A stretch of DNA of 64,000 bases from an uncultured bacterium (GTDB lineage Bacteria > Margulisbacteria > WOR-1 > O2-12-FULL-45-9). The translations under genes were made by a program, and so were the position numbers. The notes beneath the pieces were generated by a model. The model was not told where the DNA came from and did not search any database. It was given only the letters and a program-made list of their open reading frames with translations. The stretch covers positions 306 to 64,305 of the forward strand of contig CAZMPJ010000009.1 in assembly GCA_964568455.1 (NCBI GenBank). The letters run 5' to 3'. Each line of letters opens with the position of its first letter. Position 1 is the stretch's first letter. Of this stretch, positions 10,573 through 25,244 are shown one piece after another.

Positions 10573-11045
10573 AAGTATGCACCACCTGAAATATATCCAA
10601 GCAGCACTGCTAACCAGAGAACTAGAGAGGCCGTGGGTAATTTAAGAATTAACATGAAAACTGCTAAAACTTGTACTACAGTTTTGGTCTTTGCTAATAG
10701 ACTTGCTTCCAGCACTTTGCCGGCGCGAGCTAAGTTTACTCTTAATCCCGAAACCATCAGTTCTCTTGCGACTAGCAGCATTACTGCTACGACACTGGCT
10801 TTGCTTTGCGCTACCAGTGCCAAAAGAATGGTTATTACAAGGAGCTTATCCGCTAAAGGATCTAAAAATTTGCCCAAATCTGATACTTGGTTAAATTTAC
10901 GGGCGATATACCCGTCCAAAGCATCAGAAAAAGAAAGGGCCAAAAACAAAATTGCCGCTAAACCGTTAATTTCGCTTAAAAGCAGGGCGGCTACCAGGGG
11001 GATAAAAGCAATTCGTAATAATGTAATTACATTTGCAAGGGTCAA
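10539..11045 (-). CDS. pgsA: CDP-diacylglycerol--glycerol-3-phosphate 3-phosphatidyltransferase
   Basis: CDP-alcohol phosphatidyltransferase motif 'D..DG..AR' ('DALDGYIARK'); multiple TM helices. Confidence 0.75.
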   Translation of the reverse strand: MTLANVITLLRIAFIPLVAALLLSEINGLAAILFLALSFSDALDGYIARKFNQVSDLGKFLDPLADKLLVITILLALVAQSKASVVAVMLLVARELMVSGLRVNLARAGKVLEASLLAKTKTVVQVLAVFMLILKLPTASLVLWLAVLLGYISGGAYLWQNKKYLLLK

Positions 11046-12241
11046 ACTACTTCCCCGTAGAGATCGTAAGTACCCGCCTTAGTAATGCGGACTTTCACTA
11101 TCTCTCCCGGTGAAATAGATTTTGTTGCTTTTATATGCACTTTGCCATCAATATCAGGAGCATCACATAAAGTTCTGCCGCTGTTTTGATTTTCAATGAT
11201 GGTTTCAAGTGTTTTTCCGACCATGTTTTTGTTTTTTTCTTTTGAAATGCGCTTTGCTAGCCGCATCAATTTATCAAATCGAGCCTGTTTAACTTTTTCG
11301 GAAACCTGCCCCCCTAATTTTGCTGCAGGAGTTCCTTTTTCTCTAGAAAAGGTAAAGACGCCTAGATGGCTAAACTTTACCTGTTTGATAAAAGCATACA
11401 ACTCTTCAAATTCGGTCTTGCCTTCACCGGGGAAACCGACAATAACCGAAGTTCTTAGAGTTATATTAGGTATTTTCCTCCTAATCTTTGATATTAATTT
11501 TTCAAGACCAATGCGCGTATAGCGCCTTTTCATCAGGTGTAAAATTTTATCATATGCGTGCTGGATTGGCAAGTCTAAGTAGGGTACCACCTTCTTTTCT
11601 TTGGCCATTACATTGATTAATTGGTTAGTTATATGAGAAGGGTGGGTGTACATAATGCGGATCCACTTGATCCCTTTTACCTTGGCAGTTTTTCTTATTA
11701 TATCGGCAAATTTTGGATGGGCAGTTGTATCCTGGGCCACAAAAATTATCTCTTTAACCCCTCGCTTGGCCAGCCATTTTACTTCATTTATAACATCAGC
11801 AACCGATCTTGAGCGCAGTTTTCCTCGGATTTTTGGGATCAAACAATATGAGCAGCAATTATTGCAGCCTTCGGCTATTTTGACATAAGCAAACCAGGGT
11901 GGGGTGGCTTTTACTCTTGGTTCATGGTAATCGTAAAGTTGAATGGAATCGATTATACCGTCAACCTTTAATGACGAATTATTCAATGACGAATGACGAA
12001 TTAAATATTTAGGAAAACAACCGGCTAAATAGATTTCTTTCTTATACTTCTCCATTTCTTTGATAACTGCCTTGGCTTCGTCGCGGGCGGATTTTAAAAA
12101 CGCGCAAGTATTTATAATAATAATGTCTGCTTTTGCAGGATTATTGGTTAGGCTGTAACCAGAAGCAACTAGTTTTCCCATGATTACTTCGGTGTCAGTT
12201 AAATTTTTTGCGCAACCGAGTGAAATGATATGTGCTTTCAT
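11042..12241 (-). CDS. rimO: Radical-SAM methylthiotransferase, RimO-like (ribosomal protein S12 methylthiotransferase); MiaB not excluded
   Basis: N-terminal MTTase domain ('ISLGCAKNLTDTE'), radical SAM 'CNNCCSYC', C-terminal TRAM domain. It contains an in-frame partial copy of the AATGACGAA repeat. Confidence 0.8.
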   Translation of the reverse strand: MKAHIISLGCAKNLTDTEVIMGKLVASGYSLTNNPAKADIIIINTCAFLKSARDEAKAVIKEMEKYKKEIYLAGCFPKYLIRHSSLNNSSLKVDGIIDSIQLYDYHEPRVKATPPWFAYVKIAEGCNNCCSYCLIPKIRGKLRSRSVADVINEVKWLAKRGVKEIIFVAQDTTAHPKFADIIRKTAKVKGIKWIRIMYTHPSHITNQLINVMAKEKKVVPYLDLPIQHAYDKILHLMKRRYTRIGLEKLISKIRRKIPNITLRTSVIVGFPGEGKTEFEELYAFIKQVKFSHLGVFTFSREKGTPAAKLGGQVSEKVKQARFDKLMRLAKRISKEKNKNMVGKTLETIIENQNSGRTLCDAPDIDGKVHIKATKSISPGEIVKVRITKAGTYDLYGEVV

Positions 12242-12275
12242 TATCTTACATTATAACATCTGTTATAATAGATTA

Positions 12276-12962
12276 ATGCGCTTACAAAAATATATTGCCG
12301 AATGTGGCATAGTTTCGCGCCGCAAGGCGGAGGAATTTATAGCACAAGGCCGAGTAAAGGTTAATGGTGAAGTTATTACCCAGCCGGGAACAAAAATTGA
12401 TCCTAAAGAAGATCGGGTTTTTGTAAATGGCAAACTAGCCAGCCTGCGCAAGAAGAAACTTTATTTAAAAATTTATAAACCAAGAGGTGTTTTTAGTTCC
12501 TGCTACCATCGTGGAGAAAAAACCATTATTGATTTTGTAAGAGACTTGCCTTATCGTCTCTATCCTGTTGGCCGCTTAGATAAGGATTCAGAAGGCTTAA
12601 TGATTTTAACCAATGATGGTGATTTGGCTAATAAATTAATGCATCCTCGTTACGAGCATGAAAAAGAATATGAAGTTGAAGTAGAAAAGCCAATTAGTCA
12701 AAGATTAATTAAGCGTTTTGAGTATGGGGTAGAGGTTGACGGTAAAAAAACCATGTCAGCAAAAATAAGGTGTGTTGGTTTAAATAAGTTTTTTGTCACT
12801 TTAAAAGAAGGCCGTAAGCGCCAAATAAGGCAAACAGTTAGAGAATCCAGAAACAGGATTGTTAGGCTTAAAAGGATAAGGATTCAAAATATTGAACTGG
12901 GTGATTTGAAGCCTGGTGAGTTTGAGTATATCGCTTCTAAAGATTTGAATATTTTGGTATAA
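12276..12962 (+). CDS. rluB: 23S rRNA pseudouridine synthase (RsuA/RluB family)
   Basis: S4 RNA-binding domain ('LQKYIAECGIVSRRKAEEFI') and catalytic 'GRLDKDSEGL'. The ORF-track start at 12180 overlaps rimO; the likely start is 'MRLQKY' at 12276. Confidence 0.75.
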   Translation: MRLQKYIAECGIVSRRKAEEFIAQGRVKVNGEVITQPGTKIDPKEDRVFVNGKLASLRKKKLYLKIYKPRGVFSSCYHRGEKTIIDFVRDLPYRLYPVGRLDKDSEGLMILTNDGDLANKLMHPRYEHEKEYEVEVEKPISQRLIKRFEYGVEVDGKKTMSAKIRCVGLNKFFVTLKEGRKRQIRQTVRESRNRIVRLKRIRIQNIELGDLKPGEFEYIASKDLNILV

Positions 12963-12972
12963 TTCCAAGGTT

Positions 12973-14196
12973 ATGGCAATCATTGTACACAAGTATGGCG
13001 GGACCTCTGTTGGTACCCCGGAAAAAATAAAGAACGTTGCTAAAAAAGTAAAAGCAGTTAAAGATGACGGCAACGATGTAGTAGTGATTGTTTCTGCAAT
13101 GGGACATACTACTGATGAATTAATTAATCTCATGGATCAAATCACGGATAACCCAGCTCCTCGTGAATACGATATGTTAGTTTCAACCGGTGAGCAGGTT
13201 TCCGCCTCACTTCTCTCCATGGCTTTGCAAGAAATAGGTTGTCCAGCAGTTTCTTTAACCGGAGGCCAGGCTGGAGTTGAGACTGAAGATATTTATAAAA
13301 AAGCCAGAATCAAAAATGTTAAACTTGATCGGCTTAAAAAAGAATTAAAAGCTGGTAAAGTGGTAGTTATTACTGGTTTTCAAGGAATTGATAGTAAAGG
13401 CGATATCATTACTATTGGCCGCGGTGGTTCAGACACTTCTGCTGTCGCTATTGCGGCAGCTTTAAAAGCCGATGTTTGTGATATTTATACTGATGTTGAT
13501 GGTGTTTATACCACAGACCCTCGCATTGAACCTAATGCCAGGAAGTTAAAAACCATTTCTTACGAAGAAATGTTGGAACTAGCCAGTTTGGGAGCGCAAG
13601 TTTTACATCCGCGCTCAATTGAATGCGCTAGTTTTTATAATATTGTAATTCATTTGCGCTCAAGCACTGATCCGGTTAAGGGTACTTATATTAAGGAGGC
13701 AACAAAAATGGAAAAAAAGGAAGCAGTAAGGGGAATTGCTCTTGATGAAAACATTGCTAAAGTAGGAATCTTAAAAATTCCTGATCAACCAGGAGTCGCG
13801 GCAAAAATATTCAATGCTTTGGCAGCAGAAAGTATTAATGTTGACATGATTGTTCAAAGTATACACTCAAAAGGTTCTTTGGCTGATATGGCTTTTACAG
13901 TAGATAGAACAGAAATCAATAAAGCAGTTGAAGTAACCGAAAAAATTGGTAAAGAATTAAAGGCTGAAGGGGTGGCCTCTGATCCAGATGTATGTAAAGT
14001 TTCAATTGTTGGGGTAGGTATGGTTAGTCAAGCTGGAACCGCCGCTAAGATGTTTAAATCTCTTTCTGCGGAAAAGATTAATATTCAAATGATTTCTACT
14101 TCAGAGATCAAAATCTCTTGTGTAGTTAGAAAAGAAGATGGCAAGAAAGCCGTAAAAGTACTGCATAAGGCTTTTGATTTAGATAAACTTGTGTAG
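12973..14196 (+). CDS. lysC: Aspartate kinase
   Basis: 'VHKYGGTSVG' nucleotide-binding motif, amino-acid kinase fold, two C-terminal ACT domains. Confidence 0.9.
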   Translation: MAIIVHKYGGTSVGTPEKIKNVAKKVKAVKDDGNDVVVIVSAMGHTTDELINLMDQITDNPAPREYDMLVSTGEQVSASLLSMALQEIGCPAVSLTGGQAGVETEDIYKKARIKNVKLDRLKKELKAGKVVVITGFQGIDSKGDIITIGRGGSDTSAVAIAAALKADVCDIYTDVDGVYTTDPRIEPNARKLKTISYEEMLELASLGAQVLHPRSIECASFYNIVIHLRSSTDPVKGTYIKEATKMEKKEAVRGIALDENIAKVGILKIPDQPGVAAKIFNALAAESINVDMIVQSIHSKGSLADMAFTVDRTEINKAVEVTEKIGKELKAEGVASDPDVCKVSIVGVGMVSQAGTAAKMFKSLSAEKINIQMISTSEIKISCVVRKEDGKKAVKVLHKAFDLDKLV

Positions 14197-14285
14197 TTAA
14201 TGACGAATTTATCAATGACGAATGACGAATTAATTTGTAAATTAATCAATTGATCATTCTTTCGTCATTCGAATTTCGTCATTGG
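14197..14285. repeat. ~90-bp palindromic repeat element, copy 1 (CAATGACGAATGACGAA ... TTCGTCATTCGAATTTCGTCATTG)
   Basis: Internal imperfect inverted repeat. It is near-identical, in reverse complement, to 17111..17200, and a partial copy lies at 11967..12004. Confidence 0.85.
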
Positions 14286-14294
14286 ATTTTTGTT

Positions 14295-14897
14295 ATGAAC
14301 ATATTTATAGTACTTATAATATCTTATCTCTTAGGTTCCATTCCTTTCAGTCACATCTTTCCCAAGCTAAAAGGTAAGGATGTAAAATCCGCTGGAACCA
14401 AAAATGTTGGAGCAACCAATGCTTTGGTGGTTGCCGGTCCTTTAATGGGAGCTCTGGCTTTAATCGGTGACATTGGCAAAGGCTATCTGGCGGTTTATTT
14501 AGCCACCCAAGCTAGTAATAATCTTTGGATAATTGTTTTTGCCGGTTTACTAGCTATTATTGGCCATGATTTTTCTATATTTTTAAGATTTAAAGGGGGC
14601 AAGGGGGTGGCGACTACGGGCGGGGTATTGTTTGCCCTTGATCCGATTTTAACTATAATTATTTTGCTAATCTGGATTTTAATGATCCTAATTACCCGTT
14701 ATTTTATTCTCTCTACTATTATAATGTTAGGCGCGGTTCCGATTATGATGCTGGTTTTGGCAAAACCAGTGCCAATTGTAGTATTTACTTTGTTAGCTTT
14801 TGTCTTAGCCTTAATCACCCATCGTGATGATGTTTATCGATTTATTACCGGCAAAGAACTTAAAACCTCTGAAGCCATCAACCGCTATATGAAATAA
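14295..14897 (+). CDS. plsY: Glycerol-3-phosphate acyltransferase PlsY
   Basis: 'LLGSIPFS' start and 'GTKNVGATN' motif; 5-TM small membrane protein. True start 'MNIFIV' at 14295. Confidence 0.85.
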   Translation: MNIFIVLIISYLLGSIPFSHIFPKLKGKDVKSAGTKNVGATNALVVAGPLMGALALIGDIGKGYLAVYLATQASNNLWIIVFAGLLAIIGHDFSIFLRFKGGKGVATTGGVLFALDPILTIIILLIWILMILITRYFILSTIIMLGAVPIMMLVLAKPVPIVVFTLLAFVLALITHRDDVYRFITGKELKTSEAINRYMK

Positions 14898-14898
14898 G

Positions 14899-14972
14899 CG
14901 GGGTGTAGCTTAGCTTGGCAGAGCGCTACGTTCGGGACGTAGAGGCCGCTGGTTCGAATCCAGTCACCCCGA
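14899..14972 (+). tRNA. tRNA-Pro (anticodon CGG)
   Basis: Manually folded cloverleaf: acceptor CGGGGTG/CACCCCG, anticodon stem CTACG/CGTAG, loop TTCGGGA, T-arm GCTGG-TTCGAAT-CCAGT, discriminator A; 74 nt. No encoded CCA. Confidence 0.85.
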
Positions 14973-15016
14973 TTCTCTTGACTAGAATCCACTTGCTTGT
15001 TATACTCAATTACGAG

Positions 15017-15901
15017 ATGAAGAAACATTTTACATTCATGATTGTTCCTCATGATGCACAGGGACGTCTTTTTAGTTTTAAAATTTCCAACAAAGTTATC
15101 TACTTTTTAACTGGATTATGCTTGTTTGCTATATTAATTACTGCTTCAGCTGTTGTTTACTCTGCCCATTTATCCAGAAAACTAGTTTATTATTCCAACG
15201 CCATTGCTAAGAACAAGCAACAGCAAAAAATCATTACTAATTATGCCCAAAAGACCGAAGAAGTGAATAAACTTATCGATCAACTGGTTCAAGAAGAAAA
15301 TAGTTTGCGTAAAATGCTGGGTATGAAAAATTGGAAGAGCAAAATTAAACTTTCTTCCAATATAAACCTCCCTTCCGCGGATCAGGCTAAACACAATTTA
15401 AAAATAGCTGACGCAAAACTAGCGGAGAGAAAACAAAGCTTTGAAGAATTAAAAGGCTGGGTCAATACTGTGCGCAGCCGTTTTGTTTCTACTCCTTCGC
15501 GCTGGCCGATTTATGGAAGAATTGTTTCTCGCTATGGTTACCGCACTTATCCTTGGCGGGGTTTTCATAGTGGAGTGGATATTTCTGGCCGCTACGGCGC
15601 GCCAATAAGGGTTACTGCTTCAGGAGTAGTTAAGTCAACTGGGTGGATAAAAGGTTATGGTAAAACTGTAGTTGTCGACCATGGTTATGGCAAATCAACT
15701 CTTTATGCTCATCTATCAAAATATGCGGTAAAAAGAGGGGATAAGGTTGCCAAGGGTCAAGTGATTTGTTATGTAGGTAATACAGGATATAGTACCGGGC
15801 CGCATTTGCATTATGAAGTTAAAAAAGCGGGTAAAGCGGTTAATCCGGTTTCGTATTTGAATCTTAATATTTTATCAGCCAGCAAAATTTGGAGGAAATA
15901 A
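15017..15901 (+). CDS. M23-family metallopeptidase (LytM-like) with N-terminal membrane anchor and coiled-coil
   Basis: 'GVDI...G..V.A.A.G' and 'GNTGYSTGPHLHYEV' M23 zinc motifs. The ORF-track start at 14915 is a spurious extension across the tRNA; the real start is 'MKKHF' at 15017. Confidence 0.85.
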   Translation: MKKHFTFMIVPHDAQGRLFSFKISNKVIYFLTGLCLFAILITASAVVYSAHLSRKLVYYSNAIAKNKQQQKIITNYAQKTEEVNKLIDQLVQEENSLRKMLGMKNWKSKIKLSSNINLPSADQAKHNLKIADAKLAERKQSFEELKGWVNTVRSRFVSTPSRWPIYGRIVSRYGYRTYPWRGFHSGVDISGRYGAPIRVTASGVVKSTGWIKGYGKTVVVDHGYGKSTLYAHLSKYAVKRGDKVAKGQVICYVGNTGYSTGPHLHYEVKKAGKAVNPVSYLNLNILSASKIWRK

Positions 15902-15903
15902 AG

Positions 15904-16380
15904 ATGGGATTTTTGAATTATTTTATAGAAGACAAAGACGGCCATGTTCCTGACGGAATTGACACTATTATCGGCAAAAAAGCTCATTTTAAAGGAGAGC
16001 TTTCAACCAAAGGCTCGGTTTGTGTTAATGGCCGGCTGGAAGGAAAAATTAATACTGATGCGGATTTAATCATTGCTTCCGGCAGTAAGATTGTTGGAAA
16101 TATTTCCGGTGGAAATGTGGTTGTTTCCGGTAACGTAGAAGGAAATATAACTGCGGTGCATAATTTAGAAATTAAAAAATCAGGCAGGGTACACGGAGAT
16201 CTTGAAGGTGGTCGGATTGTAATTGAAGAGGGTTCTTCTTATCGCGGCAGGGTAAAAGTTAAAAGTACGGAACCGGTAATTGAAGAATCCGTAGAAGAGC
16301 CAGCTCCTCCTTCAGAAGAAAATCAAACCGAAGTAAAAGTTGAGCAAGAACCACAAACCCATATGTTTTCGAATGTCTAA
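15904..16380 (+). CDS. Bactofilin (polymer-forming cytoskeletal protein)
   Basis: Repetitive beta-helical 'G.V.G.I.G' bactofilin/DUF583 pattern ('VNGRLEGKINTDADLIIASGSKIVGNISGGNVVVSGNVEGNI'). RBS GGAGGAAATAAAG precedes the ATG at 15904. Confidence 0.8.
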   Translation: MGFLNYFIEDKDGHVPDGIDTIIGKKAHFKGELSTKGSVCVNGRLEGKINTDADLIIASGSKIVGNISGGNVVVSGNVEGNITAVHNLEIKKSGRVHGDLEGGRIVIEEGSSYRGRVKVKSTEPVIEESVEEPAPPSEENQTEVKVEQEPQTHMFSNV

Positions 16381-17071
16381 GCTCTTTGTAGTTGCCACTC
16401 CAATTGGAAATCTGGAAGACATGACTTATCGTGCAGTGCGCATTTTATCTGAAGTTGACTTAATTGCTGCTGAAGACACTCGAAAAACAAAAACCCTCTT
16501 AACCAGATACAATATTAGTACTCCTATGACGTCTTATCATAAATTTAATATTAGAGCTAAGACCGATGGCTTGATTGAGCAAATTAAAAATGGCAAAAAC
16601 ATTGCTTTAGTCTCTGATGCTGGAACTCCGGGGATTTCTGACCCTGGGTGGGAGATTATCAGAGGATCAGTTAATCAGAATATTGGGGTTGAGGTTATTC
16701 CTGGTGCTTGCGCTGCAATCGCGGCATTAGTTGGTTCGGGTTTGTCGACGGATAAATTTGTTTTTGAAGGTTTTTTACCTAAAAAACCGGGCAAAAAGAA
16801 AAAGGCGCTTGAAGCGTTAAAGCTAGATCCAAGAACAATTTTAATTTATGAATCTCCTTACCGGGTTAAAAAAACATTAGCAGACATTTTTGCTATAATG
16901 GGTAACAGGAAAGTTGCTATTTGCCGCGAGTTAACTAAAAAGTTTGAAGAAATTATCCGTGGCAATGTTGAGGAGGTGATGGAGAAAATAAAAGAGCGTA
17001 ATCTTAAGGGGGAAGTGGTGGTGGTTGTTTCAGGGTTCTATCAAGAAGCTCAACGGGAGAGACGTAGTTAA
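16373..17071 (+). CDS. rsmI: 16S rRNA (cytidine1402-2'-O)-methyltransferase
   Basis: Tetrapyrrole-methylase fold 'LFVVATPIGNLEDMTYRAVRIL...AAEDTR'; length and family match RsmI. Confidence 0.85.
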   Translation: MSKLFVVATPIGNLEDMTYRAVRILSEVDLIAAEDTRKTKTLLTRYNISTPMTSYHKFNIRAKTDGLIEQIKNGKNIALVSDAGTPGISDPGWEIIRGSVNQNIGVEVIPGACAAIAALVGSGLSTDKFVFEGFLPKKPGKKKKALEALKLDPRTILIYESPYRVKKTLADIFAIMGNRKVAICRELTKKFEEIIRGNVEEVMEKIKERNLKGEVVVVVSGFYQEAQRERRS

Positions 17072-17110
17072 GTAGTGGGTTCTATTCCCACCTTGGTTTG
17101 AATAAAATGA

Positions 17111-17200
17111 TTCAATGACGAAATTCGAATGACGAAAGAATGATCAATTGATCAATTTTAAAATTAACTCGTCATTCGTCATTGATAAATTTGTCATTAG
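17111..17200. repeat. ~90-bp palindromic repeat element, copy 2 (reverse complement of copy 1)
   Basis: CAATGACGAAATTCGAATGACGAAAGAATGATCAATTGAT...TCGTCATTCGTCATTGATAAATTTGTCATTAG aligns to the reverse complement of 14197..14285 with only a few mismatches. Confidence 0.85.
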
Positions 17201-17251
17201 AAAAAAGGGTTTCCCGAAACTCTGTACTTAATTTATAGGAGGTATAGAGTT

Positions 17252-19141
17252 ATGGATCAGAGTATCAGATTATCAGGTTATCAGATTATCAGGTTTATTA
17301 TAATAGTTTTCCTTCATTTGTCATTTTTAATTTGTCATTTGTCATTAGCAGATCAGGTTTTGCGTTTTTACGGTGAAGAAGTTGTTATTACCGCCTCGCG
17401 ACTGCCGCAGCAGCTAGAAAGATCTCCCTGGAATGTTACGGTCATAAAAGAAGACCAGATAAAAACTTTTAAAGCCGAGACTTTGGGAGAAGTGCTGCGT
17501 TTTGTGCCAGGAATTGATGTTTATGCTACAGGTGGACAGGGTGCTTTGGTTACCGAAAGGATTAAAGGTTCCAATGCTTCCCAGGTTTTAGTTTTAATTG
17601 ACGGCAATCGTATTAATAGTCCGCTTTTAGGAACTGCTGACCTGGGTGATATTATGCTTTCGGATGTGGAGAGGATTGAAGTAGTCTCATCGCCGCTATC
17701 AGCCATGTATGGTTCTGATGCAATTAGCGGGGTAATCAATGTTATTACCAAAAAAGCTGCTACTGATTCTCCTTTTCAAGCAGGTTTAACAGTTGGTAGC
17801 TTTGGTAAGTATAAATTAAATTTTTCAACTGGCAACGATGGTTATGTTTTAAGTGCGGATTATGACAAAACCAATGGTTTCCGCACCAATAGTGATTATC
17901 TAGGCCAGAATTATGCTTTTAGTAAATATTTTGGAGATTTTAGAGCAGGGATTGAATATTATACTGCAGATAAAGGAGTCCCAGGAGTTCCCAATGCTGG
18001 TGATCCTACTTCTGCATCAACTCCCGATAATCGTCAGCAAGATAAGAATACCAATCTTTATGTTGATTATAATAAACAATTTGGCAATTCAAATTTAGCC
18101 ACAAAAGTTTATCAATATTCAACTGAACAGAAGTATCACGAATATAATTTTACTACTACGGCTTTTTCAGATTATACTTATACTACTGGGCAAACTGGAG
18201 TAACTATTCAAGACAGTATTGAACTTCCAAAAAATTCCAGTTTGGTTTTGGGCTTAGAATATCATCGTGATCAGGGTACTAGTTCAAATATTGGCACGCG
18301 CGAAGTTAATTCCTATGCTTTTTATTTAGGAACAGAAACACAAAAAGGACCAGTTACTTTTGATTTTGGGGTAAGGCGCGATTATCATGGCCAAGCTGGT
18401 GAATCAATTTCTCCACGCATGGGATTAAGCATTAAACCTTCTTCAGATCTTAAACTTTTCACTAATTTTTCCACTGCTTTTAGGGCGCCTACTTTAAACG
18501 AGCTTTATTGGAGTGATGCTGTCTGGCTTATGTATGGTAATGCTAATCTTTTGCCGGAAAGAGCAATAGGCATTGAAATGGGCTTGAATAAACATATTGG
18601 TGATGGTTCTGTATTTGGTTTAACCCTGTTTGCCAGAAGAGTGGTTAACCAGATCTTGTGGGAGTTTAATTCCACGACCTTTATAACTCAAGCTAGAAAT
18701 ATTGGTAAAGTAGATGTGACTGGTGCAGAGTTGAAAAACAATATTAGGCTTTCTGAATCAGTAGAATTGTTTGCTAATGCCACTTTTCAAACTGCTTTGG
18801 ATGTAGAAGATACTACTGCGACTAATGTAGGCAATGATATTCCTTATTCACCCCGAGTTAAAGCTAATTTAGGCCTTACTTGTGGAGATTTGGCAATTAT
18901 TGCCAAGCATGTAGGCGAAAGATATTCTAATGCAGCTAATAGTAATAAATTATCTGCTTATACAGTAACAGATTTAACTTATTCAAGAAAAGTTGGCAGA
19001 GTTGATCTGTTTGCTAAAGTTGGCAACCTGTTTAATGCGGACTATGCTGAAGCAGTCGGCTGGCATCCAGTGACTTATGCTATTACTGACTATCCTATGC
19101 CCGGCCGCAACTTTGCTTTCGGCCTAGGATATGAGATATAA
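17252..19141 (+). CDS. TonB-dependent outer-membrane receptor (plug + beta-barrel)
   Basis: Predicted signal peptide, then a plug region ('EEVVITASR...VPGIDV...IDGNRIN') and a long beta-barrel with alternating aromatic/polar pattern. It lies next to a tonB-like gene. Confidence 0.8.
   Translation: MDQSIRLSGYQIIRFIIIVFLHLSFLICHLSLADQVLRFYGEEVVITASRLPQQLERSPWNVTVIKEDQIKTFKAETLGEVLRFVPGIDVYATGGQGALVTERIKGSNASQVLVLIDGNRINSPLLGTADLGDIMLSDVERIEVVSSPLSAMYGSDAISGVINVITKKAATDSPFQAGLTVGSFGKYKLNFSTGNDGYVLSADYDKTNGFRTNSDYLGQNYAFSKYFGDFRAGIEYYTADKGVPGVPNAGDPTSASTPDNRQQDKNTNLYVDYNKQFGNSNLATKVYQYSTEQKYHEYNFTTTAFSDYTYTTGQTGVTIQDSIELPKNSSLVLGLEYHRDQGTSSNIGTREVNSYAFYLGTETQKGPVTFDFGVRRDYHGQAGESISPRMGLSIKPSSDLKLFTNFSTAFRAPTLNELYWSDAVWLMYGNANLLPERAIGIEMGLNKHIGDGSVFGLTLFARRVVNQILWEFNSTTFITQARNIGKVDVTGAELKNNIRLSESVELFANATFQTALDVEDTTATNVGNDIPYSPRVKANLGLTCGDLAIIAKHVGERYSNAANSNKLSAYTVTDLTYSRKVGRVDLFAKVGNLFNADYAEAVGWHPVTYAITDYPMPGRNFAFGLGYEI
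17263..17294 (+). repeat. Perfect tandem duplication of a 16-bp unit (TATCAGATTATCAGGT x2) inside the signal-peptide coding region of the TonB-dependent receptor
   Basis: Direct reading of the sequence. It is followed by three TTTGTCATT repeats at about 17316-17346. Confidence 0.8.
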
Positions 19142-21112: not shown

Positions 21113-22990
21113 ATGCCAGGACAAGTACGATTCGGAATAAAAACTAAGACTTTTAATCGATTGCGTCATGGTCCCGCTTGGGGACTGCGCAAGGCAAGCC
21201 AACAGTTGGCTAATATGGCCAAATCTGGAAATATTGATCAGCTAGAAATTAATGAAGTGCTTGGTCAACATACTAAGCTTACAGATAGATTAATCGCTGT
21301 TAATGTTGGCCTTGTAGAAATAGAGCAAGGCACTTCAGCCAAAGATTTGCGACAATTTTTTAAAGCCTCTTTATATAGCCGCAGAACTGTCTCAACTTTT
21401 AACTTTCTTGGGTTTAAAACTGAAAAAGATTTTGCTCTTGATTTTGGGTCAGTGGCTAGTGCTGGGGATTTGTTGGCTAGTCAGGCTAAAACTCCAGCTT
21501 TAGATTATGTGTTTAAATTTTTTAGCAGCGATGCTTTAACAACCGTGGCTATACTTGGTTTTGCAGTGTTGGGGGGTTATTTGGGCTACGCAAAATGGGA
21601 TATTGTTGAACCTTTGGGCAATTTTGTTAATAATTATTTTCCAAATACAATATCTTTAGGTCCGGCTTCAGATAATAATATTATGGATACAGTAGCTTTA
21701 GTTTTTACCGGCATGATTTCTGGTTTATTACCTACAACTTTTTCTCAATTGCTTTTAAAAAGAGGTAAAGCAAAAAGACTTGCTTTGGCTACAGATCGAG
21801 TTTGGAATAGTTTAGTAGGTTATAGGTTGGGCACTAGAGGGGCTCTACCAGAAACGCTTCAAAAAGCACTTAATCGTTTTAGCGCAAAAGCCAAAAAAAC
21901 TTACTTAGCTTCTCTTAGTCCGGAAAAAATTGAAGCAGTGGCCAAAAACAAAAATGAGGCTTATAGAATCTTAGTTGATCATCTTGATACTCCAAGAGAA
22001 TTTTTGTGGCATATATTAAATGATTCACAAACAACTGCAATGTTGCGCGAGAAAGCCTTTGATAGAATAAAAGCTGGTTTTGATAAAGGGCAATTGAAAT
22101 ATCTGCTTGATCATCAAGATGAGAAAACTAGACGCCATGCTTTTGATAAGCTTAAAAGTCAAATGGACCGATCTGAGTGGATATTATTATTGATGAACGA
22201 TGACAATTTTATCAGAGCAACAGCTTTTGATAGAGTAGCTGACCTGCTTTCTCCAACCGAACTTGAGGCTATAGTTCCAGGATTAATAAATGTTCCTGCG
22301 GCTTTGCTTCGTTCTGATGTTTTTCCTAATGCAAAACTGGCCATGGCTAAAGCTTCGGTAACCGAAGTTGAATGTTCAGAACTTTTAAATATTTTTGTCA
22401 GAAACATGGACAAAGAAACAACAAAAGAATTATTCATGTTTTTGCAAGAGAACTTAAATTCATCTGCAGCAACTGCTAATGCAATGGAGCTTGAAAAGAT
22501 AGCAGTGGCTAATATGGCCAAGGTTTCTCGGGAAATCTTGTTTGAAGTTGCCATGAAGCCTATTAACACTCTTAATGCTAGGATTGCTTTTGATTCTTTG
22601 GTAGGCAGCGGAATAGTAGATTTTAAGCGATTAAGGAGTTCAGAGGTGGATAGCATAGCGCTGAAAGCTTATTTTTATGACCCAAGTTCAACTAAAGAAG
22701 AAATCGCTCAAGCTTTAGTACGCTTATTGCCTAAGAGTGATAAAGTCCAAGTTGGGACTACTACAAAAAAAGAGTGGGGTTATGAGGTTTCTGGCCCTTA
22801 TAATTTTCCGATTGAAGTAGAATCAGAAGTGCCAGTTTATGAGGATAGATATTCTGACGCAGATATTCAAACTGCTGTGAGTTTGATGCATCAACTTACA
22901 GAAGCCCAAAGAAGCGATGTTTATTTTGAATTAGCAGCTTTAGATGAAGCATTTGCTAATCGCTTATTACCTCATTTAGGCTTAAATTAG
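21113..22990 (+). CDS. Hypothetical membrane-associated HEAT/PBS-lyase-like repeat protein
   Basis: Hydrophobic segments near residues 140-210, then recurring '..R..AFDR+..' HEAT-like repeat signatures ('REKAFDRIKAGF', 'TRRHAFDKL', 'IRATAFDRVADLL', 'ARIAFDSLVG'). No catalytic motif is seen. It sits between queA and tgt. Confidence 0.4.
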   Translation: MPGQVRFGIKTKTFNRLRHGPAWGLRKASQQLANMAKSGNIDQLEINEVLGQHTKLTDRLIAVNVGLVEIEQGTSAKDLRQFFKASLYSRRTVSTFNFLGFKTEKDFALDFGSVASAGDLLASQAKTPALDYVFKFFSSDALTTVAILGFAVLGGYLGYAKWDIVEPLGNFVNNYFPNTISLGPASDNNIMDTVALVFTGMISGLLPTTFSQLLLKRGKAKRLALATDRVWNSLVGYRLGTRGALPETLQKALNRFSAKAKKTYLASLSPEKIEAVAKNKNEAYRILVDHLDTPREFLWHILNDSQTTAMLREKAFDRIKAGFDKGQLKYLLDHQDEKTRRHAFDKLKSQMDRSEWILLLMNDDNFIRATAFDRVADLLSPTELEAIVPGLINVPAALLRSDVFPNAKLAMAKASVTEVECSELLNIFVRNMDKETTKELFMFLQENLNSSAATANAMELEKIAVANMAKVSREILFEVAMKPINTLNARIAFDSLVGSGIVDFKRLRSSEVDSIALKAYFYDPSSTKEEIAQALVRLLPKSDKVQVGTTTKKEWGYEVSGPYNFPIEVESEVPVYEDRYSDADIQTAVSLMHQLTEAQRSDVYFELAALDEAFANRLLPHLGLN

Positions 22991-23008: not shown

Positions 23009-25244
<2,236 letters not shown>

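What the first reader, a model, noticed from the sequence alone, without database searches (positions are those of the whole stretch)
11967..17200. Palindromic ~90-bp AATGACGAA repeat family: inverted copies flank plsY-tRNA-M23-bactofilin-rsmI, and a partial copy is in-frame inside rimO
Copy 1 (14197-14285) and copy 2 (17111-17200) are near-perfect reverse complements. Each is itself an imperfect palindrome (CAATGACGAATGACGAA ... TTCGTCATTCGAATTTCGTCATTG). They bracket a 2.8-kb co-directional block: plsY, tRNA-Pro, M23 peptidase, bactofilin, rsmI. A 38-bp partial copy (TTAATGACGAATTATTCAATGACGAATGACGAATTAAAT, ~36/39 identical to the left arm of copy 1) lies inside the rimO reading frame on the opposite strand. 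There it encodes the low-complexity stretch 'LIRHSSLNNSSLKV' between the MTTase N-domain and the radical-SAM domain. The family could be a MITE-like mobile palindrome, bidirectional terminator/operator sites, or inverted repeats that enable inversion of the enclosed block. Related TTTGTCATT repeats continue into the start of the TonB-dependent receptor gene.
Basis: seen in the sequence. Interest (0 to 1): 0.55.

Follow-up and report, generated by a model that had tools for sequence, protein, structure and literature searches.

The report
Heptamer-built palindromic repeats in Margulisbacteria
The two 90-base palindromes are recent insertions of a hairpin element made of inverted runs of a 7-base unit (TCGTCAT); the same unit also encodes part of two proteins here, and the element type, apparently undescribed, is abundant across many bacterial phyla.

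Summary
Two 90-nt copies (14198-14287 and 17110-17199) are 93% reverse-complementary. A 37-nt arm lies in-frame in rimO, and a degenerate array lies in the signal peptide of the TonB-dependent receptor (TBDR).

The sequences are runs of a 7-nt unit (TCGTCAT) and come in two forms.

1. **Single-orientation arrays in coding DNA.** These are old. Distant Margulisbacteria/Saganbacteria carry four units at the same rimO linker position and in the same TBDR signal peptide. The units are homogenised within each lineage (TTCGTCA, TTTGTCA, TTGGTCA, TTTTTCA).

2. **The 90-nt palindromes.** These are derived insertions. Relatives have aspartokinase and plsY abutting or overlapping, and an rsmI-TBDR spacer about 90 nt shorter.

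The same architecture, an (AATGACG)n arm followed by a (CGTCATT)n arm, saturated the scans of genomes and metagenomes (Verrucomicrobia, Planctomycetes, Chloroflexi, Cyanobacteria and others). Arm order is 187:3. Close strains differ by 7- and 21-nt indels and by presence or absence of the element at a stop|start junction.

No inversion appears in nine assemblies. Rfam has no match and the searchable literature does not contain the sequence. The closest known kinds are cyanobacterial STRR and TAACTGA heptamer repeats. Function and mode of spread remain inferred.

The parts
11968..12004 (-). Single-orientation heptamer array inside rimO. On the sense strand it reads TTAAT TCGTCAT TCGTCAT TGAATAAT TCGTCAT TAA, and it encodes residues 80-92 (LIRHSSLNNSSLK) of the inter-domain linker.
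   Evidence: It is 95% identical to the left arm of copy 1. Four units occupy the same position in L010, L253 and L254.
14197..14287 (.). Palindromic copy 1. AATGACGAA boxes sit at 14199, 14214 and 14221. The centre is ATCAATTGATCA at 14245-14256. TTCGTCATT boxes sit at 14261 and 14275. The copy is inserted exactly between the aspartokinase stop (TAG, 14194-14196) and the plsY start (ATG, 14295).
   Evidence: The two genes abut in L011 and overlap by 4 nt in L010, L253, L254 and L256.
17110..17199 (.). Palindromic copy 2, inverted relative to copy 1. It is inserted in the conserved rsmI-TBDR leader, between a tRNA-like element and the helix that encloses the Shine-Dalgarno (SD) sequence.
   Evidence: The spacer is 180 nt here but 85-90 nt in L010 and L011 and 78 nt in L255.
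17314..17346 (+). Degenerate four-unit heptamer array (TTGTCAT TTTTAAT TTGTCAT TTGTCAT). It encodes the hydrophobic core and cleavage region of the TBDR signal peptide (HLSFLICHLSLA).
   Evidence: Orthologs have four units at the same place, with lineage-specific unit types.
17256..17292 (+). Octamer array (ATCAGATT/ATCAGGTT, 4.6 copies). It encodes the N-terminal region of the TBDR signal peptide (IRLSGYQIIR).
   Evidence: The peptide recurs in more than 20 TBDR orthologs.
11042..12241 (-). rimO (UPF0004 + Radical_SAM + TRAM), host of the coding array.
12973..14196 (+). Aspartokinase. Its stop codon abuts copy 1.
14295..14897 (+). plsY. Its ATG lies 11 nt after the last TTCGTCATT box of copy 1, with no good SD in between.
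17252..19141 (+). TonB-dependent receptor. Sources annotate orthologs as cobalamin receptor. It is the first gene of the TBDR-TonB_C-DUF2905-queA-tgt row.

Best explanation
The repeats are built from a 7-nt unit, TCGTCAT (reverse complement ATGACGA). They occur here in two forms.

**Form A: single-orientation arrays inside genes.** These sit in the rimO linker and the TBDR signal peptide. They are long-lived residents shared across Margulisbacteria and Saganbacteria. Only the TCGTCAT orientation can be coding. It reads as the cyclic peptide FVIRHSS with no start or stop in any frame, whereas (AATGACG)n has ATG and TGA in every frame. The arrays keep their unit count (four) but are homogenised within each lineage, which points to repeated slippage or gene conversion.

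**Form B: the 90-nt palindromes.** Each has a 5' arm (AATGACG)n, a short centre and a 3' arm (CGTCATT)n. These are derived insertions in this lineage. One lies exactly at a stop|start gene junction and one in an intergenic leader. The long arm of the element (the left arm of copy 1) shares a lineage-specific quirk with the rimO array: an 8-nt third unit. Sequence has therefore passed recently between the resident array and the element.

**Inferred mode of action.** The element self-folds. Its entering arm stops translation in all three frames, and its exiting arm offers a leader free of start and stop codons. The stem brings the upstream stop codon and the downstream start codon together, so the element can sit between translationally coupled genes with little harm. 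It is probably a near-neutral, selfish or weakly regulatory hairpin.

**Inferred mode of change.** Slippage in 7-nt steps and recombination between arrays both occur. How whole elements move to new sites is not known.

**Shown:** the anatomy, the derived-insertion status, phylum-wide conservation with concerted evolution, the cross-phylum architecture and arm-order rule, and 7n-nt indels and presence/absence between close strains.

**Inferred:** translational insulation and coupling, and the mechanism of spread.
For: **Anatomy and statistics.**

**Derived insertions.**
- Aspartokinase and plsY abut (L011) or overlap by 4 nt (L010, L253, L254, L256), against a 98-nt gap here.
- The rsmI-TBDR spacer is about 90 nt shorter in L010, L011 and L255.

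**Old coding arrays.**
- The rimO linker DNA has four units at the same position in L010, L253 and L254.
- The TBDR arrays are L010 (TCGTCAT)x4, L256 (TTGTCAT)x4, L255 TGGTCAT-type x4, L257 TTTTCAT-type x4 and L011 TCGTCAT-type x4.
- Matching peptides LSFVICHLSFA, NSSFVIRHSSFA, NWSLVIGYWSFA and FSFFIFHFSFA appear among about 85 orthologs.
- L010 has the same 36 nt, in the same reading frame, in both genes.

**Cross-phylum family.**
- Arm order AATGACGA..TCGTCATT against the reverse order is 60:1, 89:1 and 38:1. The median span is 88-122 nt.

**Dynamics between strains 92-99.8% identical.**
- Array indels of 7, 21, 21 and 21 nt.
- A 137-nt presence/absence of a whole element at a stop|start junction, where the arm supplies the stop codon.
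- A 467-nt indel bounded by arrays.

**Position relative to genes.** Long-ORF start codons are enriched 0-10 nt after arrays (11% against 3.3%). A further 17% of arrays lie in the 5' part of ORFs, for example a sulfatase and an outer-membrane efflux protein (OEP) signal peptide.
Against: - No copy of the 90-nt element was found outside a 5.4-kb stretch of the 64-kb window. Genome-wide mobility in this species is therefore unproven. The metagenome scan meant to test this was swamped by other phyla.
- No target-site duplication and no transposase were identified.
- The nearest rimO relatives (89% and 75% identical) carry a different, G+C-rich hairpin in the linker. The window's rimO array may have been re-acquired rather than inherited.
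- In viral contigs the pattern is only 2-7.5 times commoner than permuted controls (113 against 56 and 15). The special status of this heptamer among heptamers is not quantified.
- The association with start codons is partial: 56% of arrays fall in neither class.
- There is no expression or structure-probing data.
Confidence: 0.6

Rival explanations
1. Classical MITE: a non-autonomous element with terminal inverted repeats, moved in trans by a transposase encoded elsewhere in the genome.
For: There are two derived insertions of a 90-nt unit, 93% identical. The termini are inverted (AATGACGAA..TTCGTCATT). In soil strains a whole element is present or absent at one site. Some genomes have several elements per few kb.
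Against: No target-site duplication appears at either insertion or at the L145/L172 site. No partner insertion sequence was seen. The arms are tandem 7-nt arrays that vary by 7n nt, which is slippage behaviour and not that of fixed transposase-binding ends. The same unit is shared across more than 10 phyla, which is unusual for MITE termini.
Confidence: 0.2
2. Cis-regulatory sites: the 7-nt arrays bind a protein (a post-transcriptional regulator such as S1 or a cold-shock protein, or a DNA-binding factor) that controls translation or transcription of the adjacent gene.
For: Arrays in the sense orientation are enriched just upstream of start codons, often with no SD in between. Copy 1 ends 11 nt before the plsY ATG. 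The same proposal was made for TAACTGA and for Nostoc heptamers (PMC4679880; bioRxiv 10.1101/2022.06.06.494920).
Against: The downstream genes have no common function: TsaD, sulfatase, an outer-membrane efflux protein (OEP), M20 peptidase and HEAT-repeat proteins. Unit sequence drifts in concert between lineages (C, T, G and TT types), which a fixed binding site would resist. Relatives lack boxes upstream of plsY and the TBDR gene.
Confidence: 0.15
3. Phase-variation switch: 7-nt slippage in the TBDR signal-peptide array (and the 8-nt array before it) turns the receptor gene on and off, as in contingency loci.
For: A repeat whose unit is not a multiple of 3 sits in the 5' coding region of an outer-membrane receptor gene. 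Concerted evolution of the four units in each lineage implies repeated contraction and expansion. A 7-nt indel is seen between near-identical soil strains.
Against: Only four units are present, which is few for frequent slippage. All of about 85 orthologs are in frame with four units. Eight or nine contigs of this species are identical. This explanation does not account for the palindromes or for the rimO and tgt arrays.
Confidence: 0.12
4. Inverted repeats that mediate inversion of the plsY-rsmI block, or of the larger rimO-TBDR interval.
For: The 90-nt inverted repeats flank 2.8 kb. The rimO and TBDR arrays are also mutually inverted, and in L010 they are identical over 36 nt in the same frame.
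Against: Nine assemblies from different samples are collinear. Gene order is the same in L010, L011, L253, L254 and L256. The block holds no recombinase gene. Inversion between the coding arrays would wreck both genes.
Confidence: 0.03
5. Bidirectional intrinsic terminators or mRNA 3'-end stabilisers, as REP elements can be.
For: The hairpins are stable. Copy 1 is followed by a TTTTT run on the plus strand. STRR hairpins have been proposed to stabilise transcripts (PMC2670836).
Against: The stems are A+U-rich and the terminator scan calls neither copy. Copy 2 has no U-run on the transcribed strand. Copy 1 lies between genes that are translationally coupled in relatives, so an efficient terminator there would cut off plsY.
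Confidence: 0.1

Closest known systems
Cyanobacterial STRR (short tandemly repeated repetitive) heptanucleotide repeats
   Same: These are 7-nt tandem units that can form hairpins, lie in intergenic regions and in genes, and have no known function (PMC2670836). From memory, one STRR unit is TTGGTCA. That is one of the unit types found here in a TBDR signal peptide (L255). Cyanobacterial hits mix TCGTCAT, TGGTCAT and TTGTCAT units (L040, L065). Cyanobacteria are, from general knowledge, the sister phylum of Margulisbacteria.
   Different: STRR were described for heterocystous cyanobacteria. The inverted-array palindrome with a fixed arm order, the TTCGTCA unit, the spread over PVC (Planctomycetes-Verrucomicrobia-Chlamydiae group) bacteria, Chloroflexi and Acidobacteria, and the orthologous coding arrays are not part of that description, as far as I could find.
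TAACTGA heptamer direct repeats of Beggiatoaceae, Cyanobacteria and Bacteroidetes (MacGregor 2015, PMC4679880)
   Same: Heptamer arrays lie within a few nt of start codons. One orientation has stops in all frames and the other is translatable. The phylogenetic distribution is patchy across phyla. Strains differ by 7-nt indels. Downstream gene functions show no pattern. SD sequences are rare near the repeats. L010 has a TAACTTA-like array abutting the ymdB ATG.
   Different: The unit is different. In TAACTGA repeats the stop-containing orientation faces the start codon, whereas here the stop-free orientation does. Only one indirect repeat was reported there, whereas here the inverted-array palindrome is the dominant form.
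Nostoc PCC 7120 heptamers at recO and recF (bioRxiv 10.1101/2022.06.06.494920)
   Same: (GAC(C/T)AAT)x8 is (AATGACC)n, one base from (AATGACG)n. It abuts and overlaps a start codon, and a modest effect on reporter expression was reported.
   Different: It is a direct array only, in one organism, and in the opposite orientation relative to the start codon.
REP/BIME/REPIN elements of Proteobacteria (from memory: Bertels and Rainey 2011)
   Same: These are pairs of inverted short repeats forming hairpins of about 70-110 nt. They are intergenic, high in copy number in some genomes, and non-coding.
   Different: REPINs are tied to a RAYT (REP-associated tyrosine transposase) and are species-specific in sequence. 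They are not built of tandem 7-nt units. They mostly sit at 3' ends of genes. No RAYT association was tested here.
Rickettsia palindromic elements (RPE) inserted in-frame in genes (from memory: Ogata et al. 2000)
   Same: Repeat-derived sequence is translated as part of conserved proteins, in permissive segments.
   Different: RPEs insert as whole palindromes and lengthen the protein. Here only one arm orientation can be coding, the rimO linker is not lengthened, and the array is positionally conserved across a phylum.
Simple-sequence-repeat contingency loci (from memory: Neisseria opa CTCTT in the signal-peptide codons, Haemophilus tetranucleotides)
   Same: A repeat whose unit is not a multiple of 3 lies in the 5' coding region of an outer-membrane protein gene.
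   Different: Only four units are present, and no length variation was seen in this species or among about 85 orthologs.

Membership tests
Heptanucleotide tandem repeats (STRR / long simple sequence repeats) | Head-to-tail copies of a 7-nt unit, at least 2-3 units | tested here: met
   Tandem Repeats Finder reports period 7 at 11985-12001, 14214-14230, 17169-17183 and 17314-17346. L010 and L256 have 4.4-4.7 perfect units.
Heptanucleotide tandem repeats (STRR / long simple sequence repeats) | Length changes in steps of the unit between related genomes | tested here: met
   Indels of 7, 21, 21 and 21 nt lie inside arrays of strain pairs that are 97-99.8% identical. This was not seen within the window's own species.
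Heptanucleotide tandem repeats (STRR / long simple sequence repeats) | Homogenisation of units within an array (concerted evolution) | tested here: met
   The four TBDR units are all C-type, all T-type, G-type or TTTTCAT-type, depending on lineage.
MITE | Short non-coding element with terminal inverted repeats | tested here: met
   The element is 90 nt with termini AATGACGAA..TTCGTCATT.
MITE | Target-site duplication flanking the insertion | tested here: not met
   No duplication appears at either window insertion when compared with the empty sites of L011, or at the L172/L145 site. The flanks are somewhat diverged, so a 2-nt duplication cannot be excluded.
MITE | Dispersed copies in the genome and a related autonomous element | tested here: inconclusive
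   There are only two full copies, both within 3 kb, in 64 kb. No transposase search was done.
REPIN / REP | Inverted pair of short repeats forming a hairpin | tested here: met
   Folds. Arm-order rule.
REPIN / REP | Associated RAYT (Y1 transposase) gene; hundreds of copies per genome | not tested
   No RAYT search was possible on whole genomes. Density is high in some soil contigs (2-3 elements per 4-9 kb) but low in the window.
In-frame palindromic insertion (RPE-like) | The whole palindrome is inserted in an ORF, adding a peptide segment absent from orthologs | tested here: not met
   Only one arm is present, because the other orientation has stops in all frames. The linker length equals that of orthologs, and distant orthologs have the array at the same site.
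Invertible DNA segment | Both orientations present in the population; a recombinase nearby | tested here: not met
   Nine collinear assemblies. Synteny is kept in relatives. The block holds only housekeeping genes. Read-level data were not available.
Intrinsic terminator | G+C-rich stem followed by a U-run | tested here: not met
   The scan calls neither copy. The stems are A+U-rich. Only copy 1 has a following TTTTT run on the plus strand.
Contingency locus (phase variation by repeat slippage) | Repeat with a unit not divisible by 3 in the 5' coding region of a surface-protein gene | tested here: met
   A heptamer array and an octamer array lie in the TBDR signal-peptide codons.
Contingency locus (phase variation by repeat slippage) | Out-of-frame and in-frame alleles coexisting | tested here: not met
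   All contigs are identical. About 85 orthologs are all in frame. Read-level heterogeneity was not testable.
Any Rfam RNA family | Match to a curated covariance model | tested here: not met
   There is no match on the repeats in the window, at the gathering threshold or at E<=5. There is none on 18 cross-phylum loci either.

The most novel reading that the evidence does not exclude
Inverted arrays of the TTCGTCA heptamer form an unnamed class of small hairpin elements found across many phyla, related to STRR. Their sequence makes them translationally insulated: stops in all frames on entry, a leader free of start and stop codons on exit, and a stem that juxtaposes stop and start codons. That design would let them colonise stop|start junctions and 5' ends of genes in Verrucomicrobia, Planctomycetes, Chloroflexi, Cyanobacteria, Margulisbacteria and others. 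They would be propagated or bound by a conserved factor that is still unknown. Their single-orientation arrays would be a recurrent raw material for new coding sequence: signal peptides of secreted and outer-membrane proteins, and loops of housekeeping enzymes such as RimO, Tgt and ValRS.
Probability: 0.3. Interest if true: 0.8.

Novelty: new variant of a known kind. Interest (0 to 1): 0.58.

Why it matters
Heptanucleotide repeats are the commonest long simple repeats in bacteria, yet their function and spread are unexplained (PMC4679880).

This locus offers a tractable case. The same 7-nt unit is seen at once as a mobile-looking palindrome, as a signal peptide conserved across a phylum but evolving in concert, and as an enzyme linker.

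The arm-order rule (187:3), the landing at stop|start junctions in two unrelated phyla, and the 7n-nt indels between strains can all be tested directly. They bear on:
- how operons tolerate insertions;
- how translation starts without an SD sequence in these phyla;
- how repeat DNA becomes coding sequence.

On the practical side, these elements break assemblies, since arrays sit at contig ends. They also mislead start-codon calling: P0153 and P0242 are the same gene with different start calls.

Tried and rejected
- **Rfam.** Gathering-threshold and permissive searches on the window, plus gathering-threshold searches on 18 cross-phylum loci, found nothing on the repeats.
- **Promoter and terminator scan.** Counts were at shuffle level and neither copy was called.
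- **Metagenome scan for further copies in the same species.** A 20-mer from the left arm was used.
- **Inversion.** Rejected.
- **Target-site duplications.** None seen.
- **Is the G+C-rich hairpin in the rimO linker of L011 and L252 another dispersed repeat?** No other copy exists in 254 loci or in the window.
- **Literature.** Neither the tandem unit as a 14-16-mer nor the encoded peptides occur in about 8 million full texts.
- **Cluster look-up for frameshifted TBDR alleles.** Only a start-call difference turned up.
- **Operator for a TBDR regulator.** Rejected, because relatives have no boxes in the leader.
- **Chance.** Rejected.
- **Strand-specific RNA function.** This was considered because the rimO and TBDR arrays are both in the sense orientation. 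It is explained more simply by stop codons in the other orientation.

Full report
**1.

The repeat finder gives arms 14198-14287 and 17110-17199. They are 90 nt long, 93% complementary and 2822 nt apart. A third copy of 37 nt at 11968-12004 is 95% identical to the left arm of copy 1.

AATGACGAA occurs 12 times in the 64-kb window against 0.54 expected by shuffling. Eleven of these lie in 11970-17183. The variant TTTGTCATT occurs at 17190, 17317, 17331 and 17338.

Each 90-nt copy folds on itself. Energies are -24 to -28 kcal/mol, with z-scores of -2.5 to -4.5.

- rimO, 11042-12241, minus strand
- a pseudouridine synthase
- aspartokinase, 12973-14196
- plsY, 14295-14897
- tRNA-Pro
- M23 peptidase
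- bactofilin
- rsmI, 16373-17071
- a TonB-dependent receptor (TBDR), 17252-19141
- a TonB_C protein

The rimO copy encodes residues 80-92, between UPF0004 (residues 2-79) and Radical_SAM (residues 121-285).

**2. Source organism and population**

The exact RimO protein is encoded on at least 16 metagenome contigs, the longest 232 kb. Its homologs are named Candidatus Margulisbacteria, Saganbacteria or WOR-1 by their sources.

Nine contigs of the same species, from different samples and assemblers, are 99.94-100% identical to the window and collinear with it. There is no inversion and no indel in the repeats.

**3. The unit is a 7-nt tandem repeat**

Tandem Repeats Finder reports period 7 at each site.

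Because 7 and 3 share no factor, (TTCGTCA)n reads as the same cyclic peptide, FVIRHSS, in all three frames. It has no start and no stop codon. The other strand, (AATGACG)n, has ATG and TGA in every frame. This follows directly from the sequence.

It explains why both coding copies (rimO on the minus strand, the TBDR gene on the plus strand) carry the TCGTCAT orientation in the sense strand. No RNA-level function needs to be assumed.

**4. The coding arrays are old and evolve in concert**

In the RimO alignment the linker is the most variable segment, and the window protein is not longer there. Distant orthologs (57-62% identical) show NSSFVIRHSSL, NSSFAIRNSSF and NSSLGISHSSL.

Their DNA has four heptamer units at the same position:

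| Locus | rimO linker DNA |
|---|---|
| L010 | CTTAAT (TCGTCAT)x4 |
| L253 | TCGTCAT TCGCAAT TCGTAAT TCGTCAT |
| L254 | TCGTCAT TAGGAAT TAGTCAT TCGTCAT |
| window | TCGTCAT TCGTCAT TGAATAAT TCGTCAT |

The two nearest relatives (L011 at 89% and L252 at 75%) have instead a G+C-rich hairpin, GGAACCGAGACGTTCAGTCTCAGGTTCC, which encodes 'NRDVQSQV'. This hairpin is not a dispersed repeat. The window's array is therefore either inherited, with several losses elsewhere, or re-acquired by conversion. I cannot decide between these.

The TBDR signal peptide tells the same story more clearly. Six loci all have exactly four units between TTCCTT(A/C)AT and TTGC. The unit differs by lineage:

| Locus | Unit type |
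|---|---|
| L010 | TCGTCAT x4 |
| L256 | TTGTCAT x4 |
| L255 | TGGTCAT-type |
| L257 | TTTTCAT-type |
| L011 | TCGTCAT-type |
| window | TTGTCAT-type |

Among about 85 orthologs the matching peptides recur: LSFVICHLSFA, NSSFVIRHSSFA, NWSLVIGYWSFA, FSFFIFHFSFA and CSLFIVHFSFA.

The same substitution in all four units of a lineage is the signature of homogenisation by slippage or conversion. It is not what independent point mutation under protein-level selection would produce.

In L010 the rimO and TBDR arrays share 36 identical nt in the same reading frame.

**5. The 90-nt palindromes are derived insertions**

*Copy 1.* Aspartokinase and plsY abut in L011 (TAA|ATG). They overlap by 4 nt in L010, L253, L254 and L256. 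In the window, 98 nt lie between TAG (14194-14196) and ATG (14295), and copy 1 fills that gap.

*Copy 2.* The rsmI-TBDR spacer is 85-90 nt in L010 and L011 and 78 nt in L255. It is 180 nt in the window, and the extra 90 nt are copy 2.

Copy 2 sits between two conserved leader structures that remain intact. L257 has an unrelated palindrome at the same spot.

No target-site duplication is visible.

The long arm of the element shares with the rimO array the odd 8-nt third unit: TGATAAAT in the element against TGAATAAT in rimO. The short arm begins with TTCTTTCGTCATTCG, as the TBDR array of L011 does. Sequence has therefore passed recently between resident arrays and palindromes. The direction is unknown.

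**6. The same architecture is widespread**

Hits came from Verrucomicrobia, Planctomycetes, Kiritimatiellae, Chloroflexi, Acidobacteria, Bacteroidota, Cyanobacteria, Nitrospira, Omnitrophota, WOR-3 and Saganbacteria. Many of these genomes are 55-72% G+C.

A 20-mer from the window's left arm also saturated the metagenome scan. Most hits were soil contigs of about 55% G+C, with up to three elements in 4-9 kb.

Among clusters that contain both orientations, the order AATGACGA..TCGTCATT outnumbers the reverse order 60:1, 89:1 and 38:1. The median span is 88-122 nt. The window's copies obey this rule.

In viral contigs the pattern gives 113 stretches, against 56 and 15 for two permuted controls. 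Enrichment over other heptamers is therefore real but modest in that collection. It is unquantified in the other collections.

**7. Dynamics in other phyla**

Strain pairs that are 92-99.8% identical differ in several ways:
- indels of 7, 21, 21 and 21 nt inside arrays;
- a 467-nt indel bounded by arrays in the same orientation;
- a 137-nt whole element present in L172 and absent in L145.

That last element lies between two co-directional genes whose stop and start are 1 nt apart in the empty allele (TAAAATG). In the filled allele the entering arm supplies the stop codon. This is the same geometry as copy 1 in the window.

**8. Position relative to genes**

Start codons of long ORFs are enriched 0-10 nt after the last sense box: 11% against 3.3% in controls. 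They are also enriched within 50 nt: 27% against 14%. A further 17% of arrays lie in the 5' part of an ORF.

Array-bearing ORFs include a sulfatase and an outer-membrane efflux protein, where the array falls in the signal peptide. They also include TsaD, an M20 peptidase and a HEAT-repeat protein, with no common function.

Palindromes between divergent genes present the sense arm to both genes.

**9. How it most likely works (inference)**

With the observed arm order, any ribosome reading into the element meets stop codons in all frames. Any gene leaving the element is preceded by a stretch with no start or stop codon. The stem also brings the upstream stop and the downstream start side by side.

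Such an element can split tightly coupled genes with little polar effect. That would explain both where it is found and why the reverse arm order is almost never seen.

Whether it is merely tolerated or does something useful is open. Possible roles are transcript stabilisation, coupling, or leaders that work without an SD.

Arrays change by slippage and recombination, which is shown for other phyla. How a whole palindrome reaches a new site is unknown.

**10. Comparison with what is known**

The closest descriptions are these:
- cyanobacterial 7-bp STRR repeats that form hairpins (PMC2670836);
- TAACTGA heptamer repeats next to start codons in Beggiatoaceae, Cyanobacteria and Bacteroidetes (PMC4679880);
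- Nostoc (GACCAAT)n at the recO start codon (bioRxiv 10.1101/2022.06.06.494920).

Neither the tandem unit, searched as 14-16-mers, nor its peptides occur in the searchable literature. Rfam has no model for the element.

I therefore file this as a new variant of a known kind, heptanucleotide tandem repeats. The new features are a distinctive inverted-array form, a cross-phylum range and positionally conserved coding arrays.

The literature search covers open-access text only. An earlier description elsewhere cannot be excluded.

**11. Verdict**

The MITE-like reading is partly right for the two palindromes. The inversion and operator readings are not supported. The rimO copy is a resident array, not a stray fragment.

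Interest is moderate to fairly high. The local feature is probably near-neutral, but it opens onto a widespread, dynamic element class that appears to be unnamed.

Noticed in passing
window 17040-17097; L255 109-169: A tRNA-like element straddles the rsmI stop codon. It has an acceptor stem (ATCAAG/CTTGGT), a D-arm (GCTCAACGGGAGAG) and a T-arm (GTGGGTTCTATTCCCAC, 17075-17091). The stop codon sits where the anticodon arm would be. In L255 it scores 29.7 bits on the Rfam tRNA model (gathering score 29). The T-arm shows three covarying pairs in six sequences. It may be a processing signal between rsmI and the TBDR operon.
   Followed up: partly
window 17205-17251: The TBDR leader is conserved. 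A hairpin (AGGGTTTCCCGAAACTCT) overlaps a second helix (CTCTGTAC 17220-17227 / GTATAGAG 17242-17249) that encloses the SD sequence AGGAGG. L011 has one compensatory change. The gene row is TBDR-TonB_C-DUF2905-queA-tgt. This looks like a riboswitch expression platform, but Rfam gives no hit.
   Followed up: partly
window 23528-23562 (in tgt, 23012-24079); L256 14093-14126: Another in-frame heptamer array, (AAATTAA)x5, encodes [12 protein letters not shown] in a variable loop of tRNA-guanine transglycosylase. L256 has a different stretch with 7-nt periodicity in the same loop. rimO is therefore not the only housekeeping gene with such a site.
   Followed up: partly
L010 14952-14978, 17184-17214 and 147-201: The Saganbacteria relative has a TAACTTA-like array x4 abutting the ymdB start codon. 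This resembles the published TAACTGA repeats. It also has (GTCAAAA)x4.4 in-frame in valS, and (AAAGTCA)x7.9 encoding the lysine-rich start of the TBDR signal peptide.
   Followed up: no
window 17256-17292: An octamer array (ATCAGATT/ATCAGGTT, 4.6 copies) encodes IRLSGYQIIR. The peptide recurs in more than 20 TBDR orthologs. TTATCAG is the reverse complement of a rotation of TAACTGA.
   Followed up: partly
L011 10244-10290; L252 1534-1561: The rimO linker of the nearest relatives holds a G+C-rich hairpin (GGAACCGAGACGTTCAGTCTCAGGTTCC). In L011 an extra palindrome is inserted in its loop. The hairpin encodes the 'NRDVQSQV' peptide seen in many orthologs. Fifteen nt are identical between genomes whose RimO proteins are 75% identical.
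   Followed up: partly
L011 3101-7426: In the closest relative, two extra genes lie between plsY and the M23 peptidase gene. One encodes a 1022-aa protein with sigma-70 regions 3 and 4, and the other a 343-aa protein.
   Followed up: no
window about 21113-22990 (L001 1-1129): One assembly (L001) differs from the window by a single 1-nt indel. The indel splits a 625-aa ORF into products of 469 and 165 aa. It may be an assembly error or a real frameshift variant.
   Followed up: no
L258-L370 (IMG/VR contigs): The two-box pattern occurs in 113 stretches of predicted viral contigs, 38 of them as outward palindromes. Phages or prophage flanks may carry the element between hosts.
   Followed up: no
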